The position numbers were made by a program, and so were the translations under genes. A DNA stretch of 18,250 nucleotides from a virus (Duplodnaviria > Heunggongvirae > Uroviricota > Caudoviricetes): the IMG/VR virus record IMGVR_UViG_2690315922_000010; one strand, written 5' to 3'. Positions 1,031-18,134 of the stretch are shown here, piece after piece. The notes below the pieces were generated by a model. That model saw nothing but the letters and a program-made list of their open reading frames with translations, did not search any database and had not been told where the DNA came from. Each line of letters begins with the position of its first letter. Position 1 is the first letter of the stretch.

Positions 1031-2206
1031 ATGGATATAACTTGTTTAGAATGTGGCAATGTTCTTGACGACCCAACTGTAGCTTGCGATAAATGCGGTG
1101 CCACGCCTCATGTTGTAGTGCTGGGCAAACAATCGTACTTTCCTATTGGTGCTGTAACAGCAAATCTTGAAAAAAATGATTCAAGAGCATTTGATTATCG
1201 ATTAGGTGAAGTTTGGGATCTAAAAAATGAAGTCACATCTGAATTCATAACCAGAATTGAGAAAAAATTTAGCCGAAAAAACAAATTTCATAACTTCCTA
1301 GACTCAGATCACAACCCTTCATCCATTCCTACGATCCTAAAAAAATACATTAATAAAAATAATGAATTCATTGATTTATCTAGAGCTATAATAGAGAGGC
1401 TTAAACATAATGCTAATAACGAATCGAGAGTTGCCCAACTTCAGGGGGGGAGCGTTGTTTTCATCCACTATAAGTCTACCGAACCAGAGGATTTGGGGAA
1501 ACTTCTAATCGTAATGGTTGATAAACAAAGCGCCTATGACTTTGATTCGGATAAGTTGACCCCAACAAGATTAAATCCAATTAATACCGATGCCTTACGG
1601 CAGGCTGCGATGTTCGATTTAACTTTATTCGAAGCCAGTTATCCAGAAAACAAGGGTGACTCATATGTACATTTCTTGCAAGGTAAATCTAAAAGCGATT
1701 TTTTCAAAGACTCATTAGGTTGCCGACATGATTCGGACAATAAAAGAAGCATTCAGCAATTATTCAGTGCTATAGATATTTTTGCTAGTAAAAACTCACT
1801 CGGTCGTGTACTGCGTGATACTATTGACAATGAAGTTAAATCCTTACTGGAAAAAAAATCAAAAGATAAACACGGAAATAAGTCCGTTAAGATAGAGGAT
1901 ATTTCAAAAATAATTGACTCATGCCTGACTGATTCACACAAATGTAAGGGAACGTTTGTCGATTTTGTTAATCTTAATGGTTTCCAGATTGACCCTCAAT
2001 TTGAACCAACTCCTAAAGCAGCTGAAAGCGCGCTTACAATTGAAGTGGCAGATAACGACAATAATTTTAAGTTGAAAATAATGCGTGGAGCTATTGGAGA
2101 CGAAAAGTCAAATAAGCCTGTAATTCTCACTGACAACAAATGCGAAATTGTGATAAAATTGAGTCAGGCAAATTATGATGAACTCAAAAGATATAGAGAC
2201 AGCTAA
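1031..2206 (+). CDS. Zinc-ribbon protein with NdpA/YejK-like (nucleoid-associated, PF04245-like) domain, 391 aa; cassette gene 1
   Basis: ATG at 1031 with GGGGA 6 nt upstream. N-terminal CxxC-X10-CxxC (C5, C8, C19, C22). Central block GGSVVFIHYK...LLIVMVDK...YVHFLQGKSKSDFFKDSLG resembles the NdpA/YejK signature as I remember it. Strongly AT-rich codon usage compared with flanking phage genes. Function is inferred, not confirmed. Confidence 0.8.
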   Translation: MDITCLECGNVLDDPTVACDKCGATPHVVVLGKQSYFPIGAVTANLEKNDSRAFDYRLGEVWDLKNEVTSEFITRIEKKFSRKNKFHNFLDSDHNPSSIPTILKKYINKNNEFIDLSRAIIERLKHNANNESRVAQLQGGSVVFIHYKSTEPEDLGKLLIVMVDKQSAYDFDSDKLTPTRLNPINTDALRQAAMFDLTLFEASYPENKGDSYVHFLQGKSKSDFFKDSLGCRHDSDNKRSIQQLFSAIDIFASKNSLGRVLRDTIDNEVKSLLEKKSKDKHGNKSVKIEDISKIIDSCLTDSHKCKGTFVDFVNLNGFQIDPQFEPTPKAAESALTIEVADNDNNFKLKIMRGAIGDEKSNKPVILTDNKCEIVIKLSQANYDELKRYRDS

Positions 2207-2208
2207 TA

Positions 2209-3423
2209 ATGACAATTGCTGATGACTTATCAAGATTAGCGCAGATTATTAACGGAGCCTCAAGCAGAGTTGAGGGCTACTACACTGTCATAAGTCTTGA
2301 AGAAAGCATTGTTATTGTAAATAGTTCTGAAATAATTAGACTGTTACAATCTATAGGTTATAAAAAGGCAACAACCTGCATCGAAAATAATGAAATTTGG
2401 CTAGATCGCCAAGCTTCATCTTGGGATGACGCTATAATTTATGAGAATGTTGAGTCTTTTTGGTCTAGAGTAAACACCCAAAACGCTCTTCCGAAAAATT
2501 ATATCATCGGAACGCCGTTAATACTCCCTACTTCTAAGAATGAAAGCATCGAAAAAATCCATATTTTCTTTATGTGGAAAGATATCCTTTCATTAATTGC
2601 TGATCATCATAACAGTGACTGCTCTGTCTTATTTTTCACCAATGAAGACAAAAGTTATACAGTCGAACTCACGCATTTTTTACAATATAGCGAGATTAAT
2701 CGCTTATCGAACTCGTCTCTTAAATATGAAATTATAAAGGAGCTTCTCGACACAATAAAAATCAATGATTTACACAAAAGCGAGCGCAAGCTCGTTATAC
2801 GCTCAGCCATAAACGAAGTATTTAAAGCAAATGGTACGTTCAATTTCTTTGACTTGCTTAACTCTACTGAACTCGTCAGGAAAAAATATGATGAACTATA
2901 TGAGATTTACACAAAGAGGTTTTCTGTAAATAAAATTCTTAACGAACTCGATGAGAAAAATCTTGAGTTCACGAGTAAAATTAACGAATTCATATCATCT
3001 AATCAGACAAAAGCATTGACTATTCCCGGTGCATTAATAGCAGCTGGTGGCTTAGTGAAGGCTAATGAAACAACCGAAGCAATATTGATTATCGCAGGAC
3101 TTTGGATGATAAAAAAAGTCAATTACATTTCTATTGAGATATTCAATGAAACATTCGACAACTTACGTTCTCGAGTGGAGTCCGCTTTCGATAAGTATTT
3201 AAAGTTTGAAGAAAATAAAGAAATCAAAGATAATGCAGATAGTATTAAGAGTAGCATTACAGGTTTGATTGATAAAGCTAAAAAAAGGATGAGAACTGTT
3301 AAATATCTCGCATCAGCCATGTTTTATGGAGGCCTTATTTACGTTGGATATAAACAGTTCCCAGTCTTTTTTGAAAAATCGGCAGTAAATCTATTTTATT
3401 TTTTATGCCATACTATAAGCTAA
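2209..3423 (+). CDS. Membrane-anchored protein of unknown function, 404 aa; cassette gene 2
   Basis: ATG 2 nt after the stop of gene 1, suggesting translational coupling. About 265 aa soluble N-terminal domain, then a hydrophobic helical hairpin (about aa 268-303, ALTIPGALIAAGGLV...AILIIAGLWMI) and a third hydrophobic segment (about aa 366-380, YLASAMFYGGLIYVGY). AT-rich like gene 1. No recognisable catalytic motif. Confidence 0.75.
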   Translation: MTIADDLSRLAQIINGASSRVEGYYTVISLEESIVIVNSSEIIRLLQSIGYKKATTCIENNEIWLDRQASSWDDAIIYENVESFWSRVNTQNALPKNYIIGTPLILPTSKNESIEKIHIFFMWKDILSLIADHHNSDCSVLFFTNEDKSYTVELTHFLQYSEINRLSNSSLKYEIIKELLDTIKINDLHKSERKLVIRSAINEVFKANGTFNFFDLLNSTELVRKKYDELYEIYTKRFSVNKILNELDEKNLEFTSKINEFISSNQTKALTIPGALIAAGGLVKANETTEAILIIAGLWMIKKVNYISIEIFNETFDNLRSRVESAFDKYLKFEENKEIKDNADSIKSSITGLIDKAKKRMRTVKYLASAMFYGGLIYVGYKQFPVFFEKSAVNLFYFLCHTIS

Positions 3424-3759: not shown

Positions 3760-4001
3760 CAGCGCAGTACCTCCTGCACCAGTTTTTCAAACTTTCCAAC
3801 TTTGGTTTCCAGCTCTGCCACACAATCAACGAGCTCATCCACCGCTTTTTGTGCGCGATGTTTCGCCTGCATCAGTTCCCTGAGCGCTGGCACCATATCC
3901 CGACGAATGGCATCTTTTGTTACACCTGTTTTTTCCAGTTGTTCCGCCTGTCGCAACATTTCCTGTGCCTGTTTACGTAGTTGTTCAGGGGTAAAAGTCA
4001 T
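3759..4001 (-). CDS. Hypothetical small coiled-coil protein (about 80 aa), nin-region position
   Basis: The ORF track starts at a TTG (4016); I prefer the ATG at 4001 (MTFTPEQLRK...). Charged helical sequence. Its stop overlaps the Q start, and its 5' end abuts the DnaB stop. No clear Shine-Dalgarno. Confidence 0.5.
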   Translation of the reverse strand: MTFTPEQLRKQAQEMLRQAEQLEKTGVTKDAIRRDMVPALRELMQAKHRAQKAVDELVDCVAELETKVGKFEKLVQEVLR

Positions 4002-4012
4002 TGTCTGGTTGT

Positions 4013-5404
4013 TCAAAAGAAACGCTCCATCTTACTGCTGTCAGTTCGTTTGTTGCTGTATCTGCGCGGCTGGGGCTGCTGCATTGGGGTGGAAAGAATC
4101 TGTGCGCTTTCCTGATCCACAGGCAGAAAATGTCCGTTATAAAAACGCCGGTAAATCGTCCCCAGAGAACCGTTACGTTGTTTCGTGATATTGATTTCTG
4201 CTATGCCCCGGGCCTGCGTATCCGGGTTGTACACTTCATCCCTGTAAAGCATCAGAATGATGTCTGCATCCGCCTCTATTTCTCCGGAATTTTTCAGGTC
4301 TGAGTTCATGGGGCGTTTATTGGGTCTGGACTCCACACCACGGGAGAGCTGGCTCAGCGCAATTAAGGGAAAACCACCGGATTTTGCCAGGCCTTTAAGC
4401 CCCTTTGAGATTTCACCCACGGCAAGGTCATGACGCCCCGTGGTTCGGGTTTTTATCAGCCCGAGATAATCAACCACCACCAGCGCCGTTTCCGGATATT
4501 TAATCAGGTGGTGTTTCGTTGTTGCGCATATCTCGTCAATGGTCAGGTTCGCCTGGTCCACCATCCAGATATTGCGCCCGGTCATCCGCCCCACCCCTTG
4601 TGAGAAACGCGCCCAGTCTTCGTCTTCAAAGTGAGCGACAGATTTCAGACGTGATACCGGCATTCCTCCAGCCGCAGATACCATGCGCTCACCAATCTGG
4701 ATGTTCGCCATTTCCATTGTGAACAGAAGAACACCATGCCCCTGCTCAGTCACCTTGTCGATGATATCCAGCGCCAGTTCAGTTTTGCCCATTGACGGAC
4801 GAGCCGCAATAAATACCAGGTCGCCGGGCTCCATGCCGCCTGTTTTTGCGTCCAGTTCATCAATACCGGTCATCAACGTCCTGGATTTCTCCAGCCCCTG
4901 ATTCCGGCATTCAACACGCTCAACCACTTCCGGAAGCACATCATCAATATGTACCGGCTGAATAACGCCCTTTTCCGTCGACAATGAGGCCATCATGTTC
5001 TGCGCATCCTTCAGGGCATCTTCAGCTGCTTCACAGGTATGCGCATCACGTAATTTCTGCAACGCCTCATTCAGCGTCTTTTCTGCATCACGCAGTGCGG
5101 CATTGCGACGCAACGCTGCAACATAGTGCTCCAGTGAAGACTTCACCCAGGTTTTACGCCCGGTATCAGTAATCACCGGAGCAAGTTCCGGCATCTCATT
5201 GCACAGCAGCACAGGATCAATCACACCTGAAACACGAGCCTGTCTGCAGATGCCTGTGTAGATATCCCGATACGCTCGTACAGAAAAAACGTCCGCAGGT
5301 AGTGTGGCCAGAATATCCATCACTTCAGGATCTGCCCCACGCAGAAAGAACGCGCCAATGACAGCGCCTTCCAGGTCATCGTTACGCCAGACTGGTGTTG
5401 TCAT
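4013..5404 (-). CDS. DnaB-family replicative DNA helicase, about 463 aa
   Basis: Walker A AARPSMGKTELAL and other DnaB C-terminal RecA-like motifs (LVFIAARPSMGKT, VVVDYLGLIK, LSQLSRGVESRPNKRP). Start set at ATG 5404, which overlaps the stop of the upstream loader gene (ATGA), rather than the track's GTG at 5512. Confidence 0.9.
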   Translation of the reverse strand: MTTPVWRNDDLEGAVIGAFFLRGADPEVMDILATLPADVFSVRAYRDIYTGICRQARVSGVIDPVLLCNEMPELAPVITDTGRKTWVKSSLEHYVAALRRNAALRDAEKTLNEALQKLRDAHTCEAAEDALKDAQNMMASLSTEKGVIQPVHIDDVLPEVVERVECRNQGLEKSRTLMTGIDELDAKTGGMEPGDLVFIAARPSMGKTELALDIIDKVTEQGHGVLLFTMEMANIQIGERMVSAAGGMPVSRLKSVAHFEDEDWARFSQGVGRMTGRNIWMVDQANLTIDEICATTKHHLIKYPETALVVVDYLGLIKTRTTGRHDLAVGEISKGLKGLAKSGGFPLIALSQLSRGVESRPNKRPMNSDLKNSGEIEADADIILMLYRDEVYNPDTQARGIAEINITKQRNGSLGTIYRRFYNGHFLPVDQESAQILSTPMQQPQPRRYSNKRTDSSKMERFF

Positions 5405-9006: not shown

Positions 9007-9258
9007 ATGTCACAAAAAAACGATATTCCTGTTTTTCCTATTACAGCCTGGCAGGCTGGACCATTGCCCGGTTATGGTGCGCTAGCATTAAAATTCCAGT
9101 ACCTGGCTTCCCCTATGCAACCACTGGATTCAGCACAAGAAACTCAGTTCTTCGCGCTTACTCCCGAAATGGCTGAGACTTTGATCTCCGATCTGCGCCG
9201 ACATATTGAGACGCTGAAAAAATCCGGTATTCACAGCCCACAAGAAAACAGGCATTAA
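9007..9258 (+). CDS. Hypothetical protein, 83 aa
   Basis: ATG preceded by AAAGGAGG with ideal spacing. Divergent from Rha and followed by a hairpin terminator. No recognisable domain. Confidence 0.6.
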   Translation: MSQKNDIPVFPITAWQAGPLPGYGALALKFQYLASPMQPLDSAQETQFFALTPEMAETLISDLRRHIETLKKSGIHSPQENRH

Positions 9259-9289
9259 TCGAAAACACGGTTGCCACATAATTTCTTGA

Positions 9290-9322
9290 AAAGCGTCGCG
9301 CACTGGCGCTTTTCATTTCTCT
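9290..9322. terminator. Hairpin terminator between convergent genes (possibly bidirectional)
   Basis: GAAAAGCG (9290-9297) pairs with CGCTTTTC (9308-9315), followed by a T-rich tract on the plus strand. Lies between the 3' ends of the 9007-9258 gene and the cro-like gene. Confidence 0.45.
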
Positions 9323-9655: not shown

Positions 9656-9675
9656 TTTATCGGAAAGCCGATAAA
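9656..9675. promoter_or_regulatory. Candidate operator palindrome in the cI/cro intergenic region
   Basis: TTTATCGG-AAAG-CCGATAAA, perfect 8-bp arms. Adjacent to a pRM-like -10 (TAGAAT, 9649-9654). Related half-site motifs (CGATAAAC) recur near the downstream pL-like promoter. Confidence 0.4.
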
Positions 9676-9707: not shown

Positions 9708-10400
9708 ATGACATTTTCAGAACGACTTGATTTAGCTATGCGCAACGCAAAATTTACGCAAGGTAGGCTGGCCAAAGAAGTGGGTATGGCTCAGTCCAGT
9801 GTTAATCAACTACTTAACAAAGCCAACGGTTCCAGAAAAACAGTCGAAATAGCAAAAGTTTTGGGCGTTAACCCGGAATGGCTCGCATCGGGTGTTGGTC
9901 CAATGGAAATCGTGACCTCTGCAGACTCACACCAAATACGTAACATTTCTGAAGATTGGGTTACTGATTCGTATGTCGTGGATGTTTTAGACATCAGATA
10001 TAGTTGCGGACCTGGTAGTTATAACTCTGATTTTCCTGACATTGTCAGATCTATAGCGATAGAACCAGGATACGCATCAAGAGTTTTTGGCGGCAGACCA
10101 GCATCAGCAATCAAAGCAATAAACGCCCACGGCGACAGTATGAAAGGCACAATAGACCCTGAAGACTTGGTATTTGTAGATGTATCAGTTCGCACATTTA
10201 ATGGTGATGGTATATACGCCTTTACATACTCTGGAACATCGCACATCAAAAGACTTCAAAAAATCAAAGATACTCTAACGGTGATATCTGACAACCCAGC
10301 TTACAAGGATTGGGCTATCGAACCGGAAGACTTCGAACAACTTCACATTGACGGAAAAGTAATTGTCAGTTGGCCTATGACACTACACCGTTTTGCATAA
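9708..10400 (+). CDS. cI: CI-like prophage repressor (XRE HTH N-domain + S24 LexA-like peptidase C-domain), 230 aa
   Basis: N-terminal HTH (LAKEVGMAQSSVNQLLN). C-terminal autoproteolysis domain with the GDSM motif (Ser nucleophile) and a downstream Lys. AGGGGAGGA ribosome-binding site. Divergent from cro-like. Confidence 0.9.
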   Translation: MTFSERLDLAMRNAKFTQGRLAKEVGMAQSSVNQLLNKANGSRKTVEIAKVLGVNPEWLASGVGPMEIVTSADSHQIRNISEDWVTDSYVVDVLDIRYSCGPGSYNSDFPDIVRSIAIEPGYASRVFGGRPASAIKAINAHGDSMKGTIDPEDLVFVDVSVRTFNGDGIYAFTYSGTSHIKRLQKIKDTLTVISDNPAYKDWAIEPEDFEQLHIDGKVIVSWPMTLHRFA

Positions 10401-10418: not shown

Positions 10419-10444
10419 GCCCACTCTTAAGTGGGCTTTTTTTT
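10419..10444 (+). terminator. Intrinsic terminator after cI
   Basis: GCCCACT (10419-10425), loop CTTAA, GTGGGC (10431-10436), then TTTTTTTT (10437-10444). Confidence 0.6.
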
Positions 10445-10467
10445 GGAAAAAAAAATCGATAAACCGA

Positions 10468-10496
10468 TTGACAGGCGAAATCGGTAAACCTATTAT
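10468..10496 (+). promoter_or_regulatory. pL-like sigma70 promoter for the early-left operon
   Basis: TTGACA (10468-10473), 17-nt spacer, TATTAT (10491-10496). Flanked by direct repeats ATCGATAAACC (10455-10465) and ATCGGTAAACC (10480-10490), which resemble the operator half-sites. Confidence 0.55.
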
Positions 10497-11171: not shown

Positions 11172-11537
11172 ATGAAAAAGTTCGAAAACATAACTGTTCT
11201 CCATGTTGATGACTTTGATTATACAAACCCGAAACTTCTCCCGAAGGTTGTAAAGGCAATAGATGTTGCCGATATAGTGATTAGAGGAAAGAGAATTGTC
11301 AAAAACAGGCTCGCATGCACTTCAGGAGCAATGACAGAAACAACCTCACAACAAGATGATTATGAAGGCATTTGTCTGGAGCCTGATTCATTTGCGGTAA
11401 ATGTTTATCATTTATTGCATGCAACACAGGTATTACATATGTCAAGTAATCACGAAACAAAAACACTTGGCAGCGAAATTCTGAATTTTGCATGTGAATA
11501 TGCAAAAGCTGCTGCCGAAAAAGAATTAGCGCAATAA
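11172..11537 (+). CDS. Hypothetical protein, 121 aa
   Basis: ATG preceded by GAGGAA. AT-rich. No recognisable domain. Confidence 0.6.
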   Translation: MKKFENITVLHVDDFDYTNPKLLPKVVKAIDVADIVIRGKRIVKNRLACTSGAMTETTSQQDDYEGICLEPDSFAVNVYHLLHATQVLHMSSNHETKTLGSEILNFACEYAKAAAEKELAQ

Positions 11538-11615
11538 CAATAAATATTCCCTGAATGTTTATTACGGTTTTATCGCCGGAGATTGTTGCAACCTTTATTC
11601 GCAGGAGATTATGTT

Positions 11616-11729
11616 ATGACTTTCCTGAAACATAAGGCATCGTATAAAACTGCCTGCCTCATTGCACAACATGGAGATTCTTATCTTCATATAGCCAACC
11701 TGTATTTGCGCAAAGCATATGGGAGATAA
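11616..11729 (+). CDS. Possible small protein, 37 aa
   Basis: ATG preceded by AGGAGA at ideal spacing. Stop lies within the ribosome-binding site of the next gene. Not in the ORF track because it is below the length cut-off. Confidence 0.3.
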   Translation: MTFLKHKASYKTACLIAQHGDSYLHIANLYLRKAYGR

Positions 11730-11733
11730 GTCA

Positions 11734-11922
11734 ATGGAAGAAAAACAACAAAACATAACACATAAAAAAGTAAGAGTGTTGCTAACCATTGAAAATGGTG
11801 AAGTAATTTACTCAAAACATCTGTTGGATAGTGAATTCGTTGGCTGCATGGATACATTTCTGTGGATGGCAAAAAGAGCTGGCTACACGATTATTCCACC
11901 AGCAAAGGAGCAAACATTATGA
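11734..11922 (+). CDS. Hypothetical protein, about 62 aa
   Basis: ATG at 11734 preceded by GGGAGA; the track start is at 11719. Stop overlaps the next gene's start (ATGA). Confidence 0.5.
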   Translation: MEEKQQNITHKKVRVLLTIENGEVIYSKHLLDSEFVGCMDTFLWMAKRAGYTIIPPAKEQTL

Positions 11923-12500
11923 ATCATTCAGAGTTCCGACCAGAAGTTACTCCACATGGCATAAAAATTGGCAATACAACCATTGATTATGTTGAAGCTG
12001 TGCGGCGTCTTAATGATGGTGAATACGATTATCCAAATTCACGCGGTTTAAGAATCCTTCAGTGCCTTGCCGAAGCTGATGATGCCGGATTGCTGGGGAA
12101 ATTTTCCATCGATATGAAGGTTGCACAATGGCGCTGGCTGTATGTAACGATATTTATAAACGAAGAGGAATATAAGAACGGCACCATTGATATCTCGAAC
12201 GAAAACGGAACTACAGGTCGCGCAGTTATTTATAAAGGGAAATATGGTTGTATGGGTATCTACCCGGGACCAATTCGCATTGCCCTGCAAAACCATGTCG
12301 AATGGGGATTTATTGAAAAATATGGTGAAGATGAAGGTATGGGGCGAGTTCTGTTTCTCTATCAAAAAATGCTCATCGCAGATCCTGATAATGGTTTCAT
12401 TGTTTCTGCTATGGGACGCGAAGGGCTTGAACTCCTTCTGGATGAAATGATTAACGACCTGAATACTCATGGTATGCCAGAAGCGCCAGTGACACATTAA
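11919..12500 (+). CDS. Hypothetical protein, about 193 aa
   Basis: ATG at 11919 preceded by AAGGAG and coupled to the upstream gene. The track's longer N-terminus is rejected. No recognisable domain. Confidence 0.65.
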   Translation: MNHSEFRPEVTPHGIKIGNTTIDYVEAVRRLNDGEYDYPNSRGLRILQCLAEADDAGLLGKFSIDMKVAQWRWLYVTIFINEEEYKNGTIDISNENGTTGRAVIYKGKYGCMGIYPGPIRIALQNHVEWGFIEKYGEDEGMGRVLFLYQKMLIADPDNGFIVSAMGREGLELLLDEMINDLNTHGMPEAPVTH

Positions 12501-12546
12501 ATATTAAGAAGAAAATAATTCTTCCAGTTTTTTACTAACCGTTTAT

Positions 12547-12654
12547 ATGAAAAGCAACCGTGAATTAAACAGAGTAAAACTGATTTTAATCCTTGCCACA
12601 GTGGTGACACTAACTGAAATTATTATTCTCTTTATTGCGCTGTCAGTCGGTTAA
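12547..12654 (+). CDS. Possible small hydrophobic peptide, 35 aa (single transmembrane helix)
   Basis: MKSNRELNRVKLILILATVVTLTEIIILFIALSVG. No clear Shine-Dalgarno. Below the track cut-off. Confidence 0.3.
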   Translation: MKSNRELNRVKLILILATVVTLTEIIILFIALSVG

Positions 12655-12677
12655 AAATATCGGGATACCACAGACCA

Positions 12678-12866
12678 ATGAGACTGTATTTCACAATAGT
12701 AATTTTACTGGCAATTATCGCATGCATTTACGGATTACTCGTTCCGTTCCTTATATCCATGAAGGATACGATAGCAGTTATTTCTGGCTTTGCACTGGCG
12801 TTTCTGACCCCGCCCTGCATTTATGCCATTTACAAGGGTCTTTCTTTCACTAAGGATAAAAGATGA
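12678..12866 (+). CDS. Small membrane protein, 62 aa (two predicted transmembrane helices)
   Basis: Two hydrophobic helices. Stop overlaps the start of the SPFH gene (ATGA), suggesting co-translation with it. Confidence 0.5.
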   Translation: MRLYFTIVILLAIIACIYGLLVPFLISMKDTIAVISGFALAFLTPPCIYAIYKGLSFTKDKR

Positions 12867-13690
12867 AAAAAATTATTTTTGCTTTAGCCATTGTTCTGCC
12901 GACTATTGGCCTCGTCGGTTGCGATCGCGTTGAACCAGGTAATGTTGGCATCAAGGTAAATAAACTGGGCGACGACAAAGGCGTCGGTGAGGTGGTCGGT
13001 GTTGGTCGCTACTGGACAGGCTGGAACACTGAAGTTTATATCTTCCCGACCTTTAAGCAGATGAAGACCTACGATGATCCATTCAGTTTCCAGATGAGCG
13101 ATGGAACAACCATTGGTTACCACATCGGAGTAGCCTACAAAGTTGATCCATCCAAAGTTACCACGGTGTTTCAAACCTACCGCAAAGGTGTGGATGACAT
13201 TACCGACACCGACCTGCGCCAGAAGATAGCAGATGCACTAAATCGGCTGGCCAGCAAAATGACCACCGACAAATTTATCGACGGCGGCAAGTCTGAGCTG
13301 CTGGATGCAGCTCTAAAAGATATTCAGGCAGAAATGACGCCCATCGGTATTCAGGTAATGAGCCTGTCTTATGTAGGTAAACCGGAGTACCCGCCAACCG
13401 TTATCGACAGCATTAACGCCAAAGTCACGGCAAACCAGAAAACCCTGCAACGCGAGCAGGAAGTAAAACAGCGCGAAGCGGAAGCCAACATGTTGCGTGC
13501 GGAGGCTGCCGGACAGGCAGATGCAATTCGCACAAAAGCTCAGGCCGAAGCCGATGCTATTCGTTTACGCGGTGAAGCTCTGCGCCAGAACCCCGGTGTT
13601 ATGGAGCTGGAAGCCATCAATAAATGGAACGGCACACTGCCGCAATACATGACCAGCGGTGCCAATACACCATTTATCCAGGTTAAATAA
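12863..13690 (+). CDS. SPFH/Band-7 (stomatin/HflK/C-like) lipoprotein, 275 aa
   Basis: Signal peptide with lipobox LVGC. Band-7 core followed by an Ala/Glu/Gln-rich coiled coil (QREQEVKQREAEANMLRAEAAGQADAIRTKAQAEADAIRLRGEA). AAGGA ribosome-binding site. Confidence 0.85.
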   Translation: MKKIIFALAIVLPTIGLVGCDRVEPGNVGIKVNKLGDDKGVGEVVGVGRYWTGWNTEVYIFPTFKQMKTYDDPFSFQMSDGTTIGYHIGVAYKVDPSKVTTVFQTYRKGVDDITDTDLRQKIADALNRLASKMTTDKFIDGGKSELLDAALKDIQAEMTPIGIQVMSLSYVGKPEYPPTVIDSINAKVTANQKTLQREQEVKQREAEANMLRAEAAGQADAIRTKAQAEADAIRLRGEALRQNPGVMELEAINKWNGTLPQYMTSGANTPFIQVK

Positions 13691-13730
13691 CTTATATGCC
13701 CGGCAGGCCGCCGGGCTAAGGGAAAAGCAG

Positions 13731-14090
13731 ATGAACACCCATAATGCCCAACCGCAAATAATGAACTATGACCCGAATCTGACGTCATGCGGACGCATGG
13801 CAAAACAAACCGTTCGATTAACTTTCGGGTTATGGGAATACCGCGAAACATTCGAAGTCACTGTCGGTGGCAACCTGACCGGACTCGATGTTATCAGTTG
13901 CGCTATTGAAAGCCTGTACGCAACGCTGCCTTATGAAGAAGTCGAGGATGAGCGCGATATCATCGCCACCATTAATATCGGCGGCGTGAAATGCAAGGAT
14001 GAAAACTTGATCGGAGAACTCTGGCTTGCCGGGATGCTTATCTCTGCAGAAATTATCAGTATTGAACCCGCTACAAACATACCGCTCTGA
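13731..14090 (+). CDS. Hypothetical protein, about 119 aa
   Basis: ATG at 13731 preceded by AAGGGA; the track start at 13659 is rejected because it overlaps the SPFH gene. Confidence 0.6.
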   Translation: MNTHNAQPQIMNYDPNLTSCGRMAKQTVRLTFGLWEYRETFEVTVGGNLTGLDVISCAIESLYATLPYEEVEDERDIIATINIGGVKCKDENLIGELWLAGMLISAEIISIEPATNIPL

Positions 14091-14813: not shown

Positions 14814-16127
14814 ATGGATAAAGTCAAATATCCAACAGGCGTCGAAAACCACGGCGGCACATTACGCATCTGGTTTAATTTTAAAGGTAAACGTGTCAGG
14901 GAAAATCTTGGTGTCCCTGACACTGCCAAGAACAGGAAGATCGCCGGGGAACTACGGACATCGGTATGTTTTGCCATCCGCACAGGAAGCTTTGATTATG
15001 CTGCACAGTTCCCTGACTCCCCTAACCTTCAGGCTTTTGGGGTAAGTAAAAAAGAAATTACGGTGAAAGAACTTGAAGAAAAATGGCTGGATCTGAAACG
15101 AATGGAAATCTCTGCAAATGCATTCAATCGCTATGAATCCGTTGCAAGAACGATGGTTCCGAAAATTGGAGGCAGCAGACTGGTGTCATCGGTAACTAAA
15201 GAGGAATTGCTGTATATCAGGAAAGATTTGCTGACCGGGTATCAGAATCCAACGAAAAACAAAGCAGCAGCAAAAGGACGGAGCGTCGTTACTGTAAATT
15301 ATTACATGACGACAATCGCTGGAATGTTTCAGTTTGCTGCAGATCACGGTTACTTAGAAGCAAATCCCTTCCAGGGAATTAAGCCTCTTAAAAGAGCCAG
15401 GGCAGAGCCAGATCCGCTAACTCGTGACGAATTTATTCGCCTGATAGATGCTTGCCGACATCAGCAGACGAAAAACCTGTGGTCATTGGCTGTGTACACA
15501 GGAATGCGTCACGGTGAACTGGTCTCCCTGGCCTGGGAAGATATCGATCTGAAAGCAGGAACTATTACTATCAGGCGCAATTATACGAAACTCGGTGAGT
15601 TCACTCTACCTAAAACTGAAGCAAGTACAAACAGGGTTGTGCATCTTATCCAGCCCGCTATCAGTGTCCTGAAAAATCAGGCTGAAATGACAAGACTGGG
15701 TAAGCAGCACCACATCAAGGTTCAACTACGTGAATATGGGCGTTCAGTGAATCATGAATGTACTTTCGTATTTAACCCCCAGGTGGTTAGAAAAAGCAAA
15801 CAGGTCGGTTTTATCTACAAGGTAGATTCTATTGGCGACTCATGGGAAACAGCCATTAAGCGTGCGGGCATCAGGCACCGGAAAGCATACCAGTCACGAC
15901 ACACTTATGCGTGCTGGTCGTTATCTGCCGGAGCAAATCCAAGCTTCATTGCCAGCCAGATGGGCCATGCAAGTGCCCAGATGGTGTTCAATGTATACGG
16001 AGCATGGATGACTGACAGTAATGCAGAACAGATCGCAATGCTGAATCAGAAGCTGGCAGATTATGTCCCAATGATGCCCCATAGTCACCAAAATGGCACA
16101 AAAGGCTTATTAAAATCAGTAAGTTAA
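14814..16127 (+). CDS. int: Tyrosine integrase (lambda Int-like, IntR/IntE-type N-terminal arm-binding domain), 437 aa
   Basis: GGAGG ribosome-binding site. N-terminus PTGVENHGGTLRIWFNFKGKRVRE...GSFDYAAQFPDSP is typical of E. coli lambdoid integrases. C-terminal catalytic region has conserved Arg, His-x-x-Arg (SRHTYA) and Tyr. Last gene before the host junction. Confidence 0.9.
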   Translation: MDKVKYPTGVENHGGTLRIWFNFKGKRVRENLGVPDTAKNRKIAGELRTSVCFAIRTGSFDYAAQFPDSPNLQAFGVSKKEITVKELEEKWLDLKRMEISANAFNRYESVARTMVPKIGGSRLVSSVTKEELLYIRKDLLTGYQNPTKNKAAAKGRSVVTVNYYMTTIAGMFQFAADHGYLEANPFQGIKPLKRARAEPDPLTRDEFIRLIDACRHQQTKNLWSLAVYTGMRHGELVSLAWEDIDLKAGTITIRRNYTKLGEFTLPKTEASTNRVVHLIQPAISVLKNQAEMTRLGKQHHIKVQLREYGRSVNHECTFVFNPQVVRKSKQVGFIYKVDSIGDSWETAIKRAGIRHRKAYQSRHTYACWSLSAGANPSFIASQMGHASAQMVFNVYGAWMTDSNAEQIAMLNQKLADYVPMMPHSHQNGTKGLLKSVS

Positions 16128-16610: not shown

Positions 16611-18134
16611 ATGAAACGTGCAATCAGTTACATCCGATTCAGTTCTGAGAAGCAATCCCGAGGTGATTCACTACGCCGACAATCGAAGTTGGTCACTGAC
16701 TGGCTTAAAGCTCGTCCTGAGTATCATCTAGATGAATCTCTTACCTTCCGTGATTTGGGGAAAAGTGCTTTTAGCGGTAAGCACTTGAAAGGTGGCTTAG
16801 GCGACTTCTTAACCGCTATTGAGAAAGGGCTTGTAAGAGCTGGTGATACGCTCTTGATAGAGTCTCTTGACCGTCTGTCACGGCAAGATGTAGACCGAGC
16901 AAGTGAACTACTCAGAAACATCCTTCGCTCTGGTGTCGATGTGGTCACATTATCCGATAATGAACACTACACAAAGGAATCTCTTAAAGACCCGTTAGCC
17001 TTGATTAAGTCAATCCTGATTATGCAACGAGCGCATGAGGAAAGTTTGAGGAAGTCTGAGCGTATACAGGCTGCATGGGATGCAAAGAAAGAAGCCGCTA
17101 AAGCTGGTATCAAGATTTCTAAGCGTTGCCCTGCATGGCTTAAGCTTAATAATGACCGTAAAAGTTTCTCTGTAATCCCTGAGAAGGTAGCGACGGTAAA
17201 GCGATGCTTCCAGCTACGGTTAGAGGGTAAGTCTATCTTGGAAATTGTCAGAACTCTTAATAGTGAGGGACATCAGACGCTTAACCAGTACAAAGCGGGT
17301 AAATTTAGTCAGACTTCTGTGCAAGACCTTTTGAAGAATCGCTCTGTAATTGGTTATTTCACCCCCAAAGGCTGTGAAGAAATTTCAAACTATTACCCCT
17401 CTATCATCCCTGAGACTGATTTCTACAAAGTCCAGCAACTATCATATCCTCGTTACGGTAGAAAACCTGCTTCAGATAAACCATTGAGTGTGAATCTTTT
17501 CAAGGGTGTTATCCGTTGTTCTGAATGTGGTCATGCTCTGATTATCACAGGCTTTAGCGATACAAGGAACGGGATATATCGCTGCCCTCTTCGTAATGAA
17601 AACCGTTGCAGTGCTAAGGGTCTGTCACGTAAGCAAACTGATGGAACATTACTTGCTTTGCTCTCTCGTCTTGACCGATTTGAGAATGGTACAACGAATG
17701 CCATTGATACACTGAAGCTACACCGTGAACACATTTCAAACAATATTGAGAAGCTGGTACAACTCTCACTTGAAGTCGAAGACCTGACCGCTATTACCAG
17801 CAAGTTAAAACAGTTAAAGGGGGAGTTATCACAGGTTGATGCTGATATTGAGAAGGAGGCACAACGCCTTAAATCTATTGACGTGGGTTGTTTGTCTGAT
17901 TGTGACTTGAGTACAAAGGCGGGAAGGATTGAAGCACAACTGATTATTCGTAGTGCTGTTAAAGAAGTTGTTTTAAACACTGCTAAACGTCGCTGTAGAG
18001 TAACTTTTCACAATGGCAAGGTGATTGACCTGTCGATAACAGAAAACCCCGCTCAGGACATTACAGAGGCTGAAAAGTCGCTTACTGAAATTGCTGAGAA
18101 GGGTCTGTTAGATGTTGACGCCTTCCAACTGTAG
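16611..18134 (+). CDS. Large serine recombinase (serine integrase), 507 aa
   Basis: N-terminal resolvase-type catalytic domain (AISYIRFSSEKQSRGDSLRRQ with Ser nucleophile, LIESLDRLSR). Recombinase domain, Cys-rich zinc-ribbon (CSECGH...YRCPLRNENRC) and C-terminal coiled coil. Confidence 0.9.
   Translation: MKRAISYIRFSSEKQSRGDSLRRQSKLVTDWLKARPEYHLDESLTFRDLGKSAFSGKHLKGGLGDFLTAIEKGLVRAGDTLLIESLDRLSRQDVDRASELLRNILRSGVDVVTLSDNEHYTKESLKDPLALIKSILIMQRAHEESLRKSERIQAAWDAKKEAAKAGIKISKRCPAWLKLNNDRKSFSVIPEKVATVKRCFQLRLEGKSILEIVRTLNSEGHQTLNQYKAGKFSQTSVQDLLKNRSVIGYFTPKGCEEISNYYPSIIPETDFYKVQQLSYPRYGRKPASDKPLSVNLFKGVIRCSECGHALIITGFSDTRNGIYRCPLRNENRCSAKGLSRKQTDGTLLALLSRLDRFENGTTNAIDTLKLHREHISNNIEKLVQLSLEVEDLTAITSKLKQLKGELSQVDADIEKEAQRLKSIDVGCLSDCDLSTKAGRIEAQLIIRSAVKEVVLNTAKRRCRVTFHNGKVIDLSITENPAQDITEAEKSLTEIAEKGLLDVDAFQL

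What the first reader, a model, noticed from the sequence alone, without database searches (positions are those of the whole stretch)
12547..13690. Prophage-encoded SPFH/Band-7 lipoprotein with one or two small membrane partners
A lipobox-containing SPFH protein with a C-terminal coiled coil is translationally coupled to a 62-aa two-helix membrane protein and preceded by a possible 35-aa single-helix peptide. Host SPFH proteins HflK/HflC are known to modulate FtsH, which degrades lambda CII and CIII. A phage-borne SPFH module in the early-left operon could therefore influence the lysis-lysogeny decision, membrane-protein quality control or superinfection exclusion. I cannot distinguish these from the sequence.
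Basis: partly seen in the sequence, partly recalled or inferred. Interest (0 to 1): 0.6.

Follow-up and report, generated by a model that had tools for sequence, protein, structure and literature searches.

The report
Phage prohibitin-like lipoprotein with mini-membrane partner
This prophage carries a conserved two-gene membrane module, a tiny two-helix membrane protein plus a lipid-anchored prohibitin-like scaffold protein, that occurs in hundreds of virulent and temperate phages, so it is a general phage membrane device of untested function rather than a lysogeny switch.

Summary
The SPFH lipoprotein (12863-13690) and the overlapping 62-aa two-helix protein (12678-12866) are real. Pfam Band_7 scores E 1e-30, and the lipobox is LVGC with Asp at +2. 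The closest solved relatives are prohibitins and HflK/C.

The 35-aa ORF (12547-12654) exists but has no support as a gene or as part of the module.

The locus is the left arm of a phiP27-like prophage. It lies downstream of an operator-flanked, PL-like promoter.

Three results are new here:
- The SPFH belongs to one phage family (phrog_200) found in 735 phage records. These include strictly virulent phages (N4-like, rV5-like, FelixO1-like, crAss-like, Staphylococcus phage K) and haloarchaeal viruses.
- A small two-helix protein with a conserved periplasmic loop motif lies directly upstream in most lineages, usually overlapping the SPFH start. One contig carries the two as a single fused ORF.
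- The module moves between P1-like, P2-like and lambdoid phages.

I read it as an early-lytic, periplasm-facing prohibitin-type ring on the inner membrane, built with a dedicated membrane adaptor. Its purpose is untested.

The family is common in virulent and archaeal viruses, and the window holds no CII/CIII homologue. No functional study was found.

The parts
12678..12866 (+). 62-aa partner protein: a two-helix inner-membrane hairpin, N-in/C-in, with the conserved periplasmic loop motif YG-x-x-x-P-x-L-I-S-x-K-D-T-x-x-V-x-x-G
   Evidence: ORF. phrog_1130, E 2.5e-23. Two hydrophobic segments. Motif alignment across 13 phages. Charge distribution: K+R 1.16 at the N-terminus, 0.56 in the loop, 4.02 at the C-terminus. 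98 clusters at 50% identity, 55-90 aa long. Annotated by RefSeq in E. coli SE11.
12863..13690 (+). 275-aa prohibitin-type SPFH lipoprotein. Its start overlaps the partner's stop (ATGA). A Shine-Dalgarno AAGGA lies at 12852-12856.
   Evidence: Band_7 E 1.1e-30. phrog_200 E 1.7e-114. PDB profile search: prohibitin-2 at E 2.8e-17, full length. Foldseek: HflK, PHB1/2 and HflC on top, E about 1e-10.
12863..12922 (+). Lipoprotein signal peptide ending in the lipobox L-V-G-C (Cys20). The next residue is Asp, the classical inner-membrane retention signal in Enterobacteria.
   Evidence: Sequence. Cys20 at least 90% conserved. The meaning of Asp+2 rests on established knowledge of Lol sorting and was not tested.
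12926..13486 (+). SPFH/Band 7 domain (residues 22-208)
   Evidence: Pfam PF01145 envelope.
13394..13588 (+). Long helix (residues 178-242), equivalent to the coiled-coil wall of SPFH cages
   Evidence: AlphaFold2 secondary structure H178-242, block pLDDT about 73-87. Aligns with the prohibitin-2 coiled-coil region.
13607..13687 (+). C-terminal tail with the family motif A-I-N-K-W-N-G-x-L-P ... P-F-I-x-V-K (W255, G257 and P260 nearly invariant)
   Evidence: Alignment A1. phrog_38808 fragment match. The model is of low confidence here.
12547..12654 (+). 35-aa ORF. Doubtful, and not part of the conserved module.
10455..10496 (+). Strong sigma-70-like promoter (TTGACA-17-TATTAT, 11 of 12) overlapped by two operator-like palindromes (10455-10468 and 10480-10493). 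It is the likely repressor-controlled early-left promoter that drives the operon containing the module.
   Evidence: The scan lists only one weak terminator-like site on the + strand between it and the end of the SPFH gene (13352-13366, inside that gene).
9659..9672 (.). Perfect copy of the same palindrome (ATCGGAAAGCCGAT) in the repressor/cro-like intergenic region
   Evidence: 7 matches against 1.36 expected; no shuffle reached 7.
13698..13716 (+). GC-rich hairpin just after the SPFH stop, with no U-tract. It is not a canonical terminator.
   Evidence: -17.1 kcal/mol, z -1.95. Not listed as a terminator.

Best explanation
The feature is a two-gene phage membrane module.

The 62-aa protein inserts into the inner membrane as a helical hairpin. 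Both of its ends are in the cytoplasm, and a short conserved polar loop faces the periplasm.

The 275-aa protein is exported, lipid-modified at Cys20 and retained on the periplasmic face of the inner membrane. Like its nearest relatives (prohibitins, HflK/C), it probably assembles through its long helix and C-terminal tail into a ring or cage that encloses a patch of membrane. The hairpin protein would serve as its membrane-embedded adaptor or client.

In this prophage the pair is transcribed with the repressor-controlled early-left operon, so it acts during lytic growth rather than in the lysogen. The same module is used by virulent phages early in infection. I therefore take its job to be general: partitioning or shielding the infected cell's inner membrane during the latent period. 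Blocking entry by other phages is the leading guess. Holding back membrane damage or membrane-protein turnover is next.

Shown: gene pair, family membership, lipobox, topology signals, conserved synteny, and distribution across phage lifestyles.
Inferred: inner-membrane retention, ring assembly, physical contact between the two proteins, and early-lytic timing.
Speculative: the cellular target and the benefit to the phage.

My rough confidences are 0.8 for the architecture, 0.6 for the timing and 0.3 for the purpose.
For: Family and fold:
- Band_7 at E 1e-30.
- Full-length profile matches to prohibitin-2 and -1 at E 3e-17 to 1e-15, then HflC/HflK and erlins.
- Foldseek top hits are HflK, PHB1/2 and HflC.
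- These three clades all place the SPFH domain on the non-cytoplasmic side (established knowledge; PMC12048511 and PMC12624060 abstracts).

Anchor and topology:
- The lipobox Cys is conserved. Asp at +2 occurs in the enterobacterial members and in Burkholderia phage vB_RY5.
- Phage K and halovirus homologues use an N-terminal transmembrane anchor instead. This fixes the site of action at the outer face of the cytoplasmic membrane.
- The partner follows the positive-inside rule.

Coupling of the two genes:
- The start and stop overlap in ATGA.
- A partner-profile hit lies upstream in 119 of 124 loci, 93 of them with the 4-base overlap.
- In a wider set of 343 loci, 52 of 63 clusters at 90% SPFH identity have the hit, and 23 of 33 clusters at 70%.
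- Clusters without a profile hit still carry a two-helix ORF that ends at or just upstream of the SPFH start, overlapping it in four of the five examined.
- One contig (L114) has an in-frame fusion: partner, then signal peptide and lipobox, then SPFH.
- The halovirus has a 44-aa single-helix ORF directly downstream.

Timing:
- The operator-flanked promoter lies upstream, and the scan lists only one weak terminator-like site (13352-13366, inside the SPFH gene) between it and the end of the SPFH gene.
- In a P1-like phage the module sits between the Dam methylase gene (dmt) and the replicative helicase gene (ban homologue); in canonical P1 that interval belongs to the C1-controlled ban operon. 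In P2-like P88 it lies between cox and the replication gene.
- In N4-like phages it sits just after the RNA polymerase 2 gene.

General role: 735 phage records hold the family, including many virulent phages, and all those tested fall in phrog_200.
Against: - Nothing here shows localisation, oligomerisation, contact between the two proteins, or any phenotype.
- The AlphaFold2 model is mediocre: mean pLDDT 66.6, with residues 13-63 and 249-275 poor.
- The +2 residue is not Asp in many relatives (Y, E, S, A, N, G), so inner-membrane retention is not proven for the family.
- A P. multocida prophage SPFH protein was found in outer-membrane vesicles (PMC9872710).
- The partner and the SPFH do not co-diverge. 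The mature SPFH proteins of P88 and the P1-like phage are 95-96% identical to this one, yet their partners are only 25-32% identical. This argues against a large specific interface.
- The fusion rests on a single metagenome-assembled contig.
- Promoter and operator calls are pattern matches only.
Confidence: 0.45

Rival explanations
1. One reading: the phage SPFH mimics or perturbs HflK/C. It thereby changes FtsH activity, stabilising CII/CIII-type regulators or membrane substrates and biasing the lysis-lysogeny decision.
For: - The nearest relatives, prohibitins and HflK/C, are the two SPFH clades known to work with FtsH-family proteases, and they share the exoplasmic topology (PMC12048511).
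- The weak best NCBIfam hits are HflC and HflK.
- The module sits in the early-left operon of a temperate phage.
Against: - The same family is common in strictly virulent phages and in haloarchaeal viruses. Archaea lack FtsH (established knowledge).
- The HflC and HflK models score far below their cut-offs: 24.7 against 134.4 and 22.7 against 159.4.
- Structure-based alignments to HflK/C show about 15-18% identity, which makes co-assembly unlikely.
- No CII- or CIII-like ORF is found in the immunity and early regions of the window.
- The family does not share HflK's transmembrane-helix anchoring.
Confidence: 0.15
2. Superinfection exclusion at the inner membrane. The ring and its partner occupy or sequester the membrane site or host proteins that incoming phages need to translocate DNA, as T4 Imm or Gram-positive Ltp-type lipoproteins do.
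For: - The gene is accessory, patchy and highly mobile between P1-like, P2-like and lambdoid phages.
- It is expressed early in both virulent and temperate contexts.
- It faces the periplasm at the inner membrane.
- PHROGs file the partner under 'moron, auxiliary metabolic gene and host takeover'.
- In N4-like and Vi01-like phages the SPFH gene lies next to a gene annotated as superinfection exclusion. In the N4-like phage this is a P22 gp17-type gene, PF17420.
Against: - There is no similarity to any known exclusion protein and no PADLOC hit.
- Exclusion genes of temperate phages are usually expressed in the lysogen, whereas this one appears to be repressor-controlled.
- The neighbouring gp17-type protein is soluble and its adjacency may be coincidental.
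Confidence: 0.25
3. Control of lysis. The small membrane protein is holin- or antiholin-like, and the SPFH ring corrals it to set lysis timing or to help export lytic enzymes.
For: - The partner is small, has two helices and carries a basic C-terminal tail, as class II holins do.
- In Staphylococcus phage K the homologue MbpS, with the holin-like MbpV upstream, sits between the endolysin gene and tgl. A role in Tgl export has been suggested (PMC7150955).
Against: In N4-like, rV5-like, FelixO1-like, crAss-like, P1-like, P2-like and phiP27-like genomes, no lysis gene is annotated within the 1.5-6 kb shown on either side of the module. In most of these stretches the neighbours are early, replication or regulatory genes, or hypothetical proteins. 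Phage K's MbpV is not homologous to the partner.
Confidence: 0.08
4. Lysogenic-conversion lipoprotein. It is made in the lysogen and acts on the bacterial surface or on an animal host, like the prophage SPFH protein PM0222 of Pasteurella multocida.
For: PM0222 is a prophage-encoded 'HflK/C-like' protein of 25-35 kDa. It is present in outer-membrane vesicles, signals through TLR1/2 and contributes to virulence (PMC9872710). The module is common in pathogenic E. coli prophages, including Stx phages.
Against: - Whether PM0222 belongs to this family was not tested.
- No promoter or terminator of its own was found, and promoter-like sites are no more frequent than chance (11 against 12.4 expected).
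- The likely driving promoter carries operators.
- The wide presence in virulent phages of non-pathogens and archaea argues for a phage-centred role.
Confidence: 0.07

Closest known systems
Prohibitin complexes (PHB1/PHB2) of the mitochondrial inner membrane
   Same: They are the best full-length sequence match among solved structures, E 3e-17 to 1e-15. The domain order is the same: anchor, SPFH, long helix, and a conserved 'NP-x-x-x-x-L' C-terminal segment. The SPFH domain is on the non-matrix (exoplasmic) side. Structural similarity was confirmed by Foldseek.
   Different: The anchor is a lipid rather than an N-terminal transmembrane helix. One gene replaces the PHB1/PHB2 pair. A separate two-helix mini-protein is attached. 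Structure-based alignments show about 15-16% identity. Ring formation was not shown here.
E. coli HflK/HflC-FtsH complex
   Same: It is a periplasm-facing SPFH cage on the inner membrane, a top Foldseek hit and a weak profile hit. It is historically tied to phage lambda lysogeny.
   Different: The HflC and HflK equivalog models are failed by a wide margin. There is no transmembrane helix and no HflK-type N-terminal extension. The family also occurs in viruses of archaea, which have no FtsH.
Prokaryotic SPFH-NfeD operons (stomatin/STOPP, QmcA-YbbJ, YqiK-YqiJ, FloA-NfeD2)
   Same: An SPFH gene is paired and co-transcribed with a small membrane-protein gene.
   Different: The partner here has no NfeD domain (no Pfam hit). 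It is only about 60 aa, lies upstream, and faces a periplasmic rather than a cytoplasmic SPFH domain.
Staphylococcus phage K MbpS (with MbpV)
   Same: Same phage family, phrog_200, E 1.3e-92. A small membrane-protein gene lies immediately upstream. Function is unknown; a role in Tgl secretion has been suggested (PMC7150955).
   Different: It is anchored by a transmembrane helix rather than a lipobox. The upstream protein has one helix and is not homologous to the partner. It lies in the lysis region.
Pasteurella multocida prophage protein PM0222
   Same: It is a prophage-borne SPFH 'HflK/C-like' protein of similar size and the only prophage SPFH with experimental data found here (PMC9872710).
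   Different: It was reported in outer-membrane vesicles, with an effect on the animal host.
phiP27 L05 / Stx-phage 'serine protease' / RefSeq 'SPFH domain-containing protein'
   Same: Direct orthologues, 99% identical in protein for phiP27, with the same neighbours.
   Different: The 'serine protease' name is an annotation artefact. No protease domain is detectable.

Membership tests
SPFH / Band 7 superfamily (PF01145) | Profile match above the curated threshold | tested here: met
   107.5 bits against a cut-off of 23.6, E 1.1e-30, residues 22-208.
SPFH / Band 7 superfamily (PF01145) | SPFH alpha/beta fold followed by a long helix | tested here: met
   The Foldseek top 50 are all SPFH proteins or the related vault protein, at probability 1.00. 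The model is only moderately confident, mean pLDDT 66.6.
Cage-forming SPFH assemblies (prohibitin, HflK/C, stomatin, flotillin, erlin) | Homo- or hetero-oligomeric ring or cage abutting a membrane | not testable with these tools
   Only a monomer could be predicted. The long helix 178-242 and the conserved C-terminal tail are compatible with a cage.
HflK / HflC (FtsH modulators) | Match to the NCBIfam equivalog models TIGR01932/TIGR01933 at their cut-offs | tested here: not met
   24.7 bits against 134.4 and 22.7 bits against 159.4.
HflK / HflC (FtsH modulators) | Physical and functional association with FtsH | not testable with these tools
   No ftsH linkage appears in any locus examined. The family is present in archaeal viruses.
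Bacterial lipoprotein | Signal peptide with a lipobox [LVI][ASTVI][GAS]C near residues 15-35 and a basic n-region | tested here: met
   MKK...IGLVGC with Cys20. The Cys is at least 90% conserved. No dedicated predictor was available.
Bacterial lipoprotein | Lipid modification and signal peptidase II cleavage; membrane sorting | not testable with these tools
   Asp at +2 predicts inner-membrane retention (established knowledge). Experiment is needed.
SPFH-NfeD operon | Adjacent gene encoding an NfeD-domain protein | tested here: not met
   The partner and the flanking ORFs have no NfeD hit.
PHROG 200 (phage SPFH 'lipoprotein') with PHROG 1130 (small membrane protein) | Profile matches to both families in adjacent genes | tested here: met
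   E 1.7e-114 and 2.5e-23. The same pair is present in an N4-like phage.
Known anti-phage defence systems (PADLOC-DB v2) | Match to any defence-system protein model | tested here: not met
   No hit at E up to 0.1 for the SPFH, the partner or the flanking ORFs.
Class II holins | Small two-helix protein with a charged C-terminus, located with endolysin and spanin genes, that causes lysis | tested here: inconclusive
   Size, helix number and basic tail fit. No lysis gene is nearby in the window or in most phages examined. Activity was not testable.
Serine protease (legacy annotation of phiP27 L05 and Stx-phage orthologues) | Recognisable protease domain or catalytic motif | tested here: not met
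   Band_7 is the only Pfam match above its cut-off; the other listed hit, DUF7945, is far below (14.4 bits against 27). No protease family is listed. The only hint is a weak overlap with phrog_11227 'protease' in the coiled-coil region.

The most novel reading that the evidence does not exclude
The prohibitin-like lipoprotein and its mini-membrane partner form a previously unrecognised, pan-phage two-component 'membrane cage' system. It would have a dedicated role in conflict at the cell envelope, such as excluding superinfecting phages or neutralising membrane-targeting host defences from the periplasmic side. It is conserved from enterobacterial prophages to crAss-like phages and, with other small partners, to Staphylococcus phages and haloarchaeal viruses.
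Probability: 0.25. Interest if true: 0.75.

Novelty: new variant of a known kind. Interest (0 to 1): 0.5.

Why it matters
SPFH scaffolds (prohibitins, stomatins, flotillins, HflK/C) are a long-standing puzzle: their structures are now known, but their cellular logic is still debated.

Phages carry a compact, lipid-anchored version with a roughly 60-aa partner. It is found in at least 735 sequenced phages, including N4-like and P1-like phages and therapeutic Staphylococcus and Pseudomonas phages. Genome papers repeatedly call its presence unexplained.

Recognising it as a conserved two-gene module used in lytic growth gives a small, genetically tractable system. It could be used to ask what an SPFH ring does to a membrane and what phages gain from one.

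It also corrects two recurring annotation habits. 'Serine protease' is wrong. The gene should not be read as a marker of a temperate lifestyle, or as an HflKC-like lysogeny factor, when screening therapeutic phages.

Tried and rejected
- P1 plp/upl lead. I suspected that canonical P1 Plp ('putative lipoprotein') and Upl were this pair. They are not: Plp is 125 aa and lies on the other strand. P1-like variants carry the module in place of the plp-upl-tciABC cassette.
- Defence system. PADLOC gave no hits.
- NfeD partner. No Pfam hit.
- Autonomous 'moron' with its own promoter and terminator. Promoter-like sites are no more frequent than chance (11 against 12.4 expected). The upstream hairpin is weak (-4.3 kcal/mol, z -0.47). 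The downstream hairpin lacks a U-tract.
- The 35-aa ORF as a third component. Rejected.
- Lambda-type CII/CIII in the window. None found.
- Pattern search with the 17-sequence alignment. It failed for lack of conserved stretches. The first IMG/VR scan returned only near-identical copies, so I re-queried with distant members.
- Structure prediction. It was limited to a shallow alignment (75-95% identity) because locus-derived sequences are not accepted. The resulting model is mediocre. I did not attempt a complex prediction.
- Literature. Eight searches found no functional study of a phage SPFH protein, only genome-paper remarks and the P. multocida PM0222 work.
- Chromosomal copies in Dyella and Luteibacter. 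I examined these for informative neighbours such as ftsH and found none.
Full report
**What is in the sequence**

The 275-aa ORF (12863-13690) is an SPFH protein:
- Pfam Band_7 scores E 1.1e-30 over residues 22-208, far above the curated cut-off.
- PHROGs places it in phrog_200 'lipoprotein' at E 1.7e-114.
- Its N-terminus, MKKIIFALAIVLPTIGLVGC-D, has a basic start, a hydrophobic core and an L-V-G-C lipobox.
- The cysteine is at least 90% conserved in a diverse alignment and in a closer one.

The 62-aa ORF (12678-12866) ends in the TGA of an ATGA that contains the SPFH start codon. A good AAGGA ribosome-binding site lies 6 nt before that start. The 62-aa protein belongs to phrog_1130 'membrane protein' (E 2.5e-23). 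It has two hydrophobic segments, and RefSeq annotates it in E. coli SE11.

The 35-aa ORF (12547-12654) is open here and in close relatives, but it has little else in its favour:
- I see no Shine-Dalgarno sequence upstream in the sequence.
- It matches no family and has no RefSeq annotation.
- Its substitutions are 9 synonymous to 18 non-synonymous, which is near neutral. The 62-aa gene shows 34 to 26.
- It is missing from 33 of 85 loci that carry the close partner, and from every other phage context.

I treat it as unsupported.

**Where it sits**

The window is the left arm and immunity region of a phiP27-like prophage.
- The queried 1.4-kb stretch (12400-13800) is 95% identical in nucleotides to phiP27 and 92% to several Stx2 phages. 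The gene order is the same as in phiP27 and E. coli SE11.
- On the + strand lie an S24/HTH repressor (9708-10400), a second HTH protein, several unknowns, the module, DUF5406, DUF4222, an excisionase and a tyrosine integrase.
- The replication genes run on the other strand.
- Directly after the repressor gene there is a clean terminator (10419-10436). A strong promoter follows (10468-10496, 11 of 12 consensus positions).
- That promoter is overlapped by two copies of a 14-bp palindrome. A perfect copy of the same palindrome lies in the repressor/cro-like intergenic region. There are 7 matches in the window against 1.36 expected, and no shuffle reached 7.
- The scan lists only one weak terminator-like site on the + strand between this promoter and the end of the SPFH gene (13352-13366, inside that gene). 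Promoter-like sites around the module are no more frequent than chance.
- The hairpin upstream of the module is weak. The one downstream has no U-tract.

This rests on pattern matches, not on transcript data.

**What kind of SPFH protein it is**

- A profile of 17 diverse phage homologues finds prohibitin-2 and prohibitin-1 as the best solved relatives. The matches cover the full length, at E 3e-17 to 1e-15. HflC, erlins, QmcA and HflK follow.
- The AlphaFold2 model is only moderately confident (mean pLDDT 66.6). The core beta-strands 65-94, the helices and the 65-residue helix 178-242 are well supported.
- Foldseek returns HflK, PHB1/2 and HflC at the top, E about 1e-10.
- The NCBIfam equivalog models for HflC and HflK are missed by a wide margin. 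It is therefore not an HflK or HflC orthologue.
- Prohibitins, HflK/C and erlins are the SPFH clades whose SPFH domain lies on the non-cytoplasmic side of the membrane. A lipoprotein anchor gives the same orientation.
- Asp at +2 is the classical signal for retention in the inner membrane in Enterobacteria (established knowledge, not tested here).
- Homologues from Staphylococcus phage K and a haloarchaeal virus carry an N-terminal transmembrane anchor instead of a lipobox. In those hosts the anchor can only sit in the cytoplasmic membrane. This supports the outer face of the cytoplasmic membrane as the family's site of action.
- The legacy name 'serine protease', used for phiP27 L05 and Stx-phage orthologues, has no basis. 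Pfam lists no protease family, and Band_7 is the only match above its cut-off.

**Distribution: not a lysogeny gene**

A tblastn search of the phage collection finds the protein in 735 records. Besides temperate phages, these include:
- strictly virulent N4-like Schitoviridae, including an Enquatrovirus N4 isolate;
- rV5-like, FelixO1-like, crAss-like and phiCbK-like phages, and jumbo phages;
- 223 Staphylococcus phage records, including phage K (protein MbpS);
- haloarchaeal tailed viruses.

All the representatives I tested fall in the same PHROG at E 1e-63 to 1e-95.

Within temperate phages the gene is mobile. A core from about 12911 to 13657 is 87-89% identical in nucleotides in the P2-like phage P88 and in P1-like phage-plasmids. 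In P88 it lies between cox and the replication gene. In the P1-like phages it lies between the Dam methylase gene (dmt) and the replicative helicase gene (ban homologue), replacing the plp-upl-tciABC cassette of canonical P1. Those are also repressor-controlled early operons. In N4-like phages it follows the RNA polymerase 2 gene.

**The partner is part of the module**

In every Gram-negative-host phage I opened, a 49-84-aa two-helix ORF lies just upstream of the SPFH gene. In most it overlaps the SPFH start; in SSE121 and UFV-P2 it lies 140-147 nt upstream. These proteins are only 25-38% identical to the window's, except 68% in a Klebsiella prophage. They share a clear pattern: helix 1 ending in Y-G, then x-x-x-P-x-(L/M)-(I/V)-S-x-x-(D/N)-(T/S)-x-x-V-x-x-G leading into helix 2.

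Survey results with a profile of 13 of these proteins:
- It finds an upstream, same-strand hit in 119 of 124 SPFH loci. In 93 of them the overlap is the 4-base ATGA type.
- After adding 230 more viral contigs seeded from Pseudomonas-, crAss- and rV5-like members, I de-replicated the set by SPFH identity. 52 of 63 clusters at 90% identity carry the hit, and 23 of 33 clusters at 70%.
- The clusters without a hit that I inspected still have a two-helix ORF with a polar S/N-x-x-S/N-T loop. In four of the five it overlaps the SPFH start, and in the fifth it ends 56 nt upstream.

True exceptions carry other small membrane proteins:
- a 4-helix protein in a phiCbK-like phage;
- the 1-helix MbpV in phage K;
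- a 44-aa 1-helix ORF immediately downstream in the halovirus.

In one metagenome-assembled Iamiaceae contig the partner, a basic linker, the signal peptide and lipobox, and the SPFH form a single ORF. Basic residues concentrate at the partner's two ends and acidic ones in the loop. The ends should therefore be cytoplasmic and the conserved loop periplasmic. The fusion's implied topology agrees with this.

A search of 1.84 billion representative proteins with a partner profile finds 98 clusters. Almost all are 55-90 aa, so it is a stand-alone mini-protein family. PHROGs splits the partners over several families or none. This probably explains why the pairing has not been noted.

**How it most likely works**

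Shown:
- two co-translated genes;
- one inner-membrane hairpin with a conserved periplasmic loop;
- one exported, lipobox-bearing prohibitin-type SPFH protein;
- conserved synteny across very distant phages;
- presence in both virulent and temperate phages.

Inferred from the family:
- The lipoprotein stays on the periplasmic face of the inner membrane.
- It assembles through its long helix and conserved C-terminal tail into a ring or cage over a membrane patch.
- The hairpin protein is its membrane-embedded adaptor or client. This would be a 'split' version of the transmembrane anchor that prohibitins and HflK/C carry in cis.

Inferred from context: it is made early in lytic growth.

Speculative: what the enclosed patch is for. 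My leading guess is protection of the infected cell's inner membrane during the latent period, most plausibly by excluding DNA entry from other phages. Modulation of membrane-protein turnover comes next.

The FtsH/CII idea has one point in its favour. The two closest characterised clades both partner FtsH-type proteases. Several points count against it:
- The family thrives in phages that never lysogenise and in viruses of archaea, which lack FtsH.
- The protein fails the HflK and HflC models.
- No CII- or CIII-like ORF is found in the window.

A lysis-timing role is suggested only by phage K, where the gene sits in the lysis region (PMC7150955). Elsewhere no lysis gene is annotated in the stretches shown around the module.

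A lysogenic-conversion role like that of P. multocida PM0222 (PMC9872710) cannot be excluded. It fits poorly with the operator-controlled promoter and the distribution in virulent phages. I could not test whether PM0222 belongs to this family.

**Loose ends**

- The mature SPFH proteins of P88 and the P1-like phage are 95-96% identical to this one. Their partners are only 25-32% identical and their signal peptides about 40%.
  - Either the SPFH core was recently exchanged between phages that already had the module, or partner recognition rests on the short loop motif alone.
  - This also argues against a large co-evolving interface.
- The +2 residue varies across the family (D, Y, E, S, A, N, G), so sorting may differ between hosts.
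- Several Dyella and Luteibacter genomes carry the pair among ordinary chromosomal genes.

**Comparison with what is known, and novelty**

The gene itself is known and annotated: phiP27 L05, RefSeq 'SPFH domain-containing protein', and phrog_200. Genome papers have repeatedly remarked on phage SPFH genes and called their role unclear, or guessed at lysogeny control (PMC13239085, PMC8540360, PMC10269572, PMC7150955). I found no functional study in eight literature searches.

What I did not find described is:
- the conserved two-helix partner, a non-NfeD counterpart of the classical SPFH-NfeD operon;
- the fused form;
- the consistent early-lytic placement;
- the implication that the family is a general phage membrane device.

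I therefore rate it a new variant of a known kind, of moderate interest. It is not surprising in kind. It is widespread, unexplained and directly testable.

Noticed in passing
window 9007-9258 (+), terminator-like hairpin 9287-9315: A BssS-family (biofilm regulator) gene sits between the Rha-type gene and the cro-like gene, on the opposite strand to both. A clean terminator-like hairpin follows it (Pfam E 1.3e-15). It looks like an inserted accessory gene in the immunity region.
   Followed up: no
window 16611-18134 (+), just after the tyrosine integrase 14814-16127: A 507-aa large serine recombinase (Resolvase, Recombinase and zinc-ribbon domains) lies right next to the prophage integrase. 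In E. coli SE11 the integrase abuts yecE/yecN/cmoA instead. A second mobile element or a tandem prophage may therefore adjoin this one.
   Followed up: partly
window 1031-3423 (+): A 391-aa protein of the NA37 nucleoid-associated family is followed by a 404-aa ORF with no Pfam match. Both lie beyond the replication genes and on the opposite strand to them.
   Followed up: no
window 12911-13657 compared with L002 (P88) and L003 (P1-like): There is a mosaic boundary inside the signal peptide. The mature SPFH is 95-96% identical across lambdoid, P2-like and P1-like phages. The upstream partners are only 25-32% identical.
   Followed up: partly
L114 (Iamiaceae metagenome-assembled contig) 3809-4960: A single 383-aa ORF fuses the two-helix partner, a basic linker, a signal peptide with lipobox, and the SPFH. 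It is a single observation. An assembly frameshift cannot be excluded.
   Followed up: no
L112-L122 (Dyella, Luteibacter and related Lysobacterales genomes): The partner-plus-SPFH pair occurs in what looks like ordinary chromosomal context. Neighbours include zinc dehydrogenase, aldo-keto reductase, PI-PLC-like and PpnN genes. The module is therefore not confined to phages.
   Followed up: partly
L007 (N4-like VEc25) 1407-1721; phage PhiSH19 75,137-75,457: In two unrelated virulent phage families a gene annotated as superinfection exclusion sits just upstream of the SPFH gene. In the N4-like phage it is a P22 gp17-type gene, PF17420.
   Followed up: partly
L124 (canonical P1) 11473-12930 compared with L003: The interval between the tRNA genes and ban in P1-like phages is a variable accessory slot. 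Canonical P1 has plp-upl-tciABC there. Several P1-like phage-plasmids have the partner-SPFH pair instead.
   Followed up: yes
L015 (Haloarcula virus HCTV-10) 2354-2488: A 44-aa single-helix ORF starts 2 nt after the SPFH stop. This suggests that pairing with a mini-membrane protein extends to archaeal viruses, though with a different partner and gene order.
   Followed up: no
phrog_200 profile, positions 1-80: All SPFH proteins tested align from about position 76-81 of the 379-position profile. The profile may include N-terminally extended or partner-fused members.
   Followed up: no
window 13731-14090 (+) and 11862-12500 (+): The flanking genes are DUF5406 (phrog_3409) and phrog_1515, both of unknown function. 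They accompany the module only in phiP27-like prophages and are absent from the P1-like, P2-like and virulent-phage contexts.
   Followed up: partly
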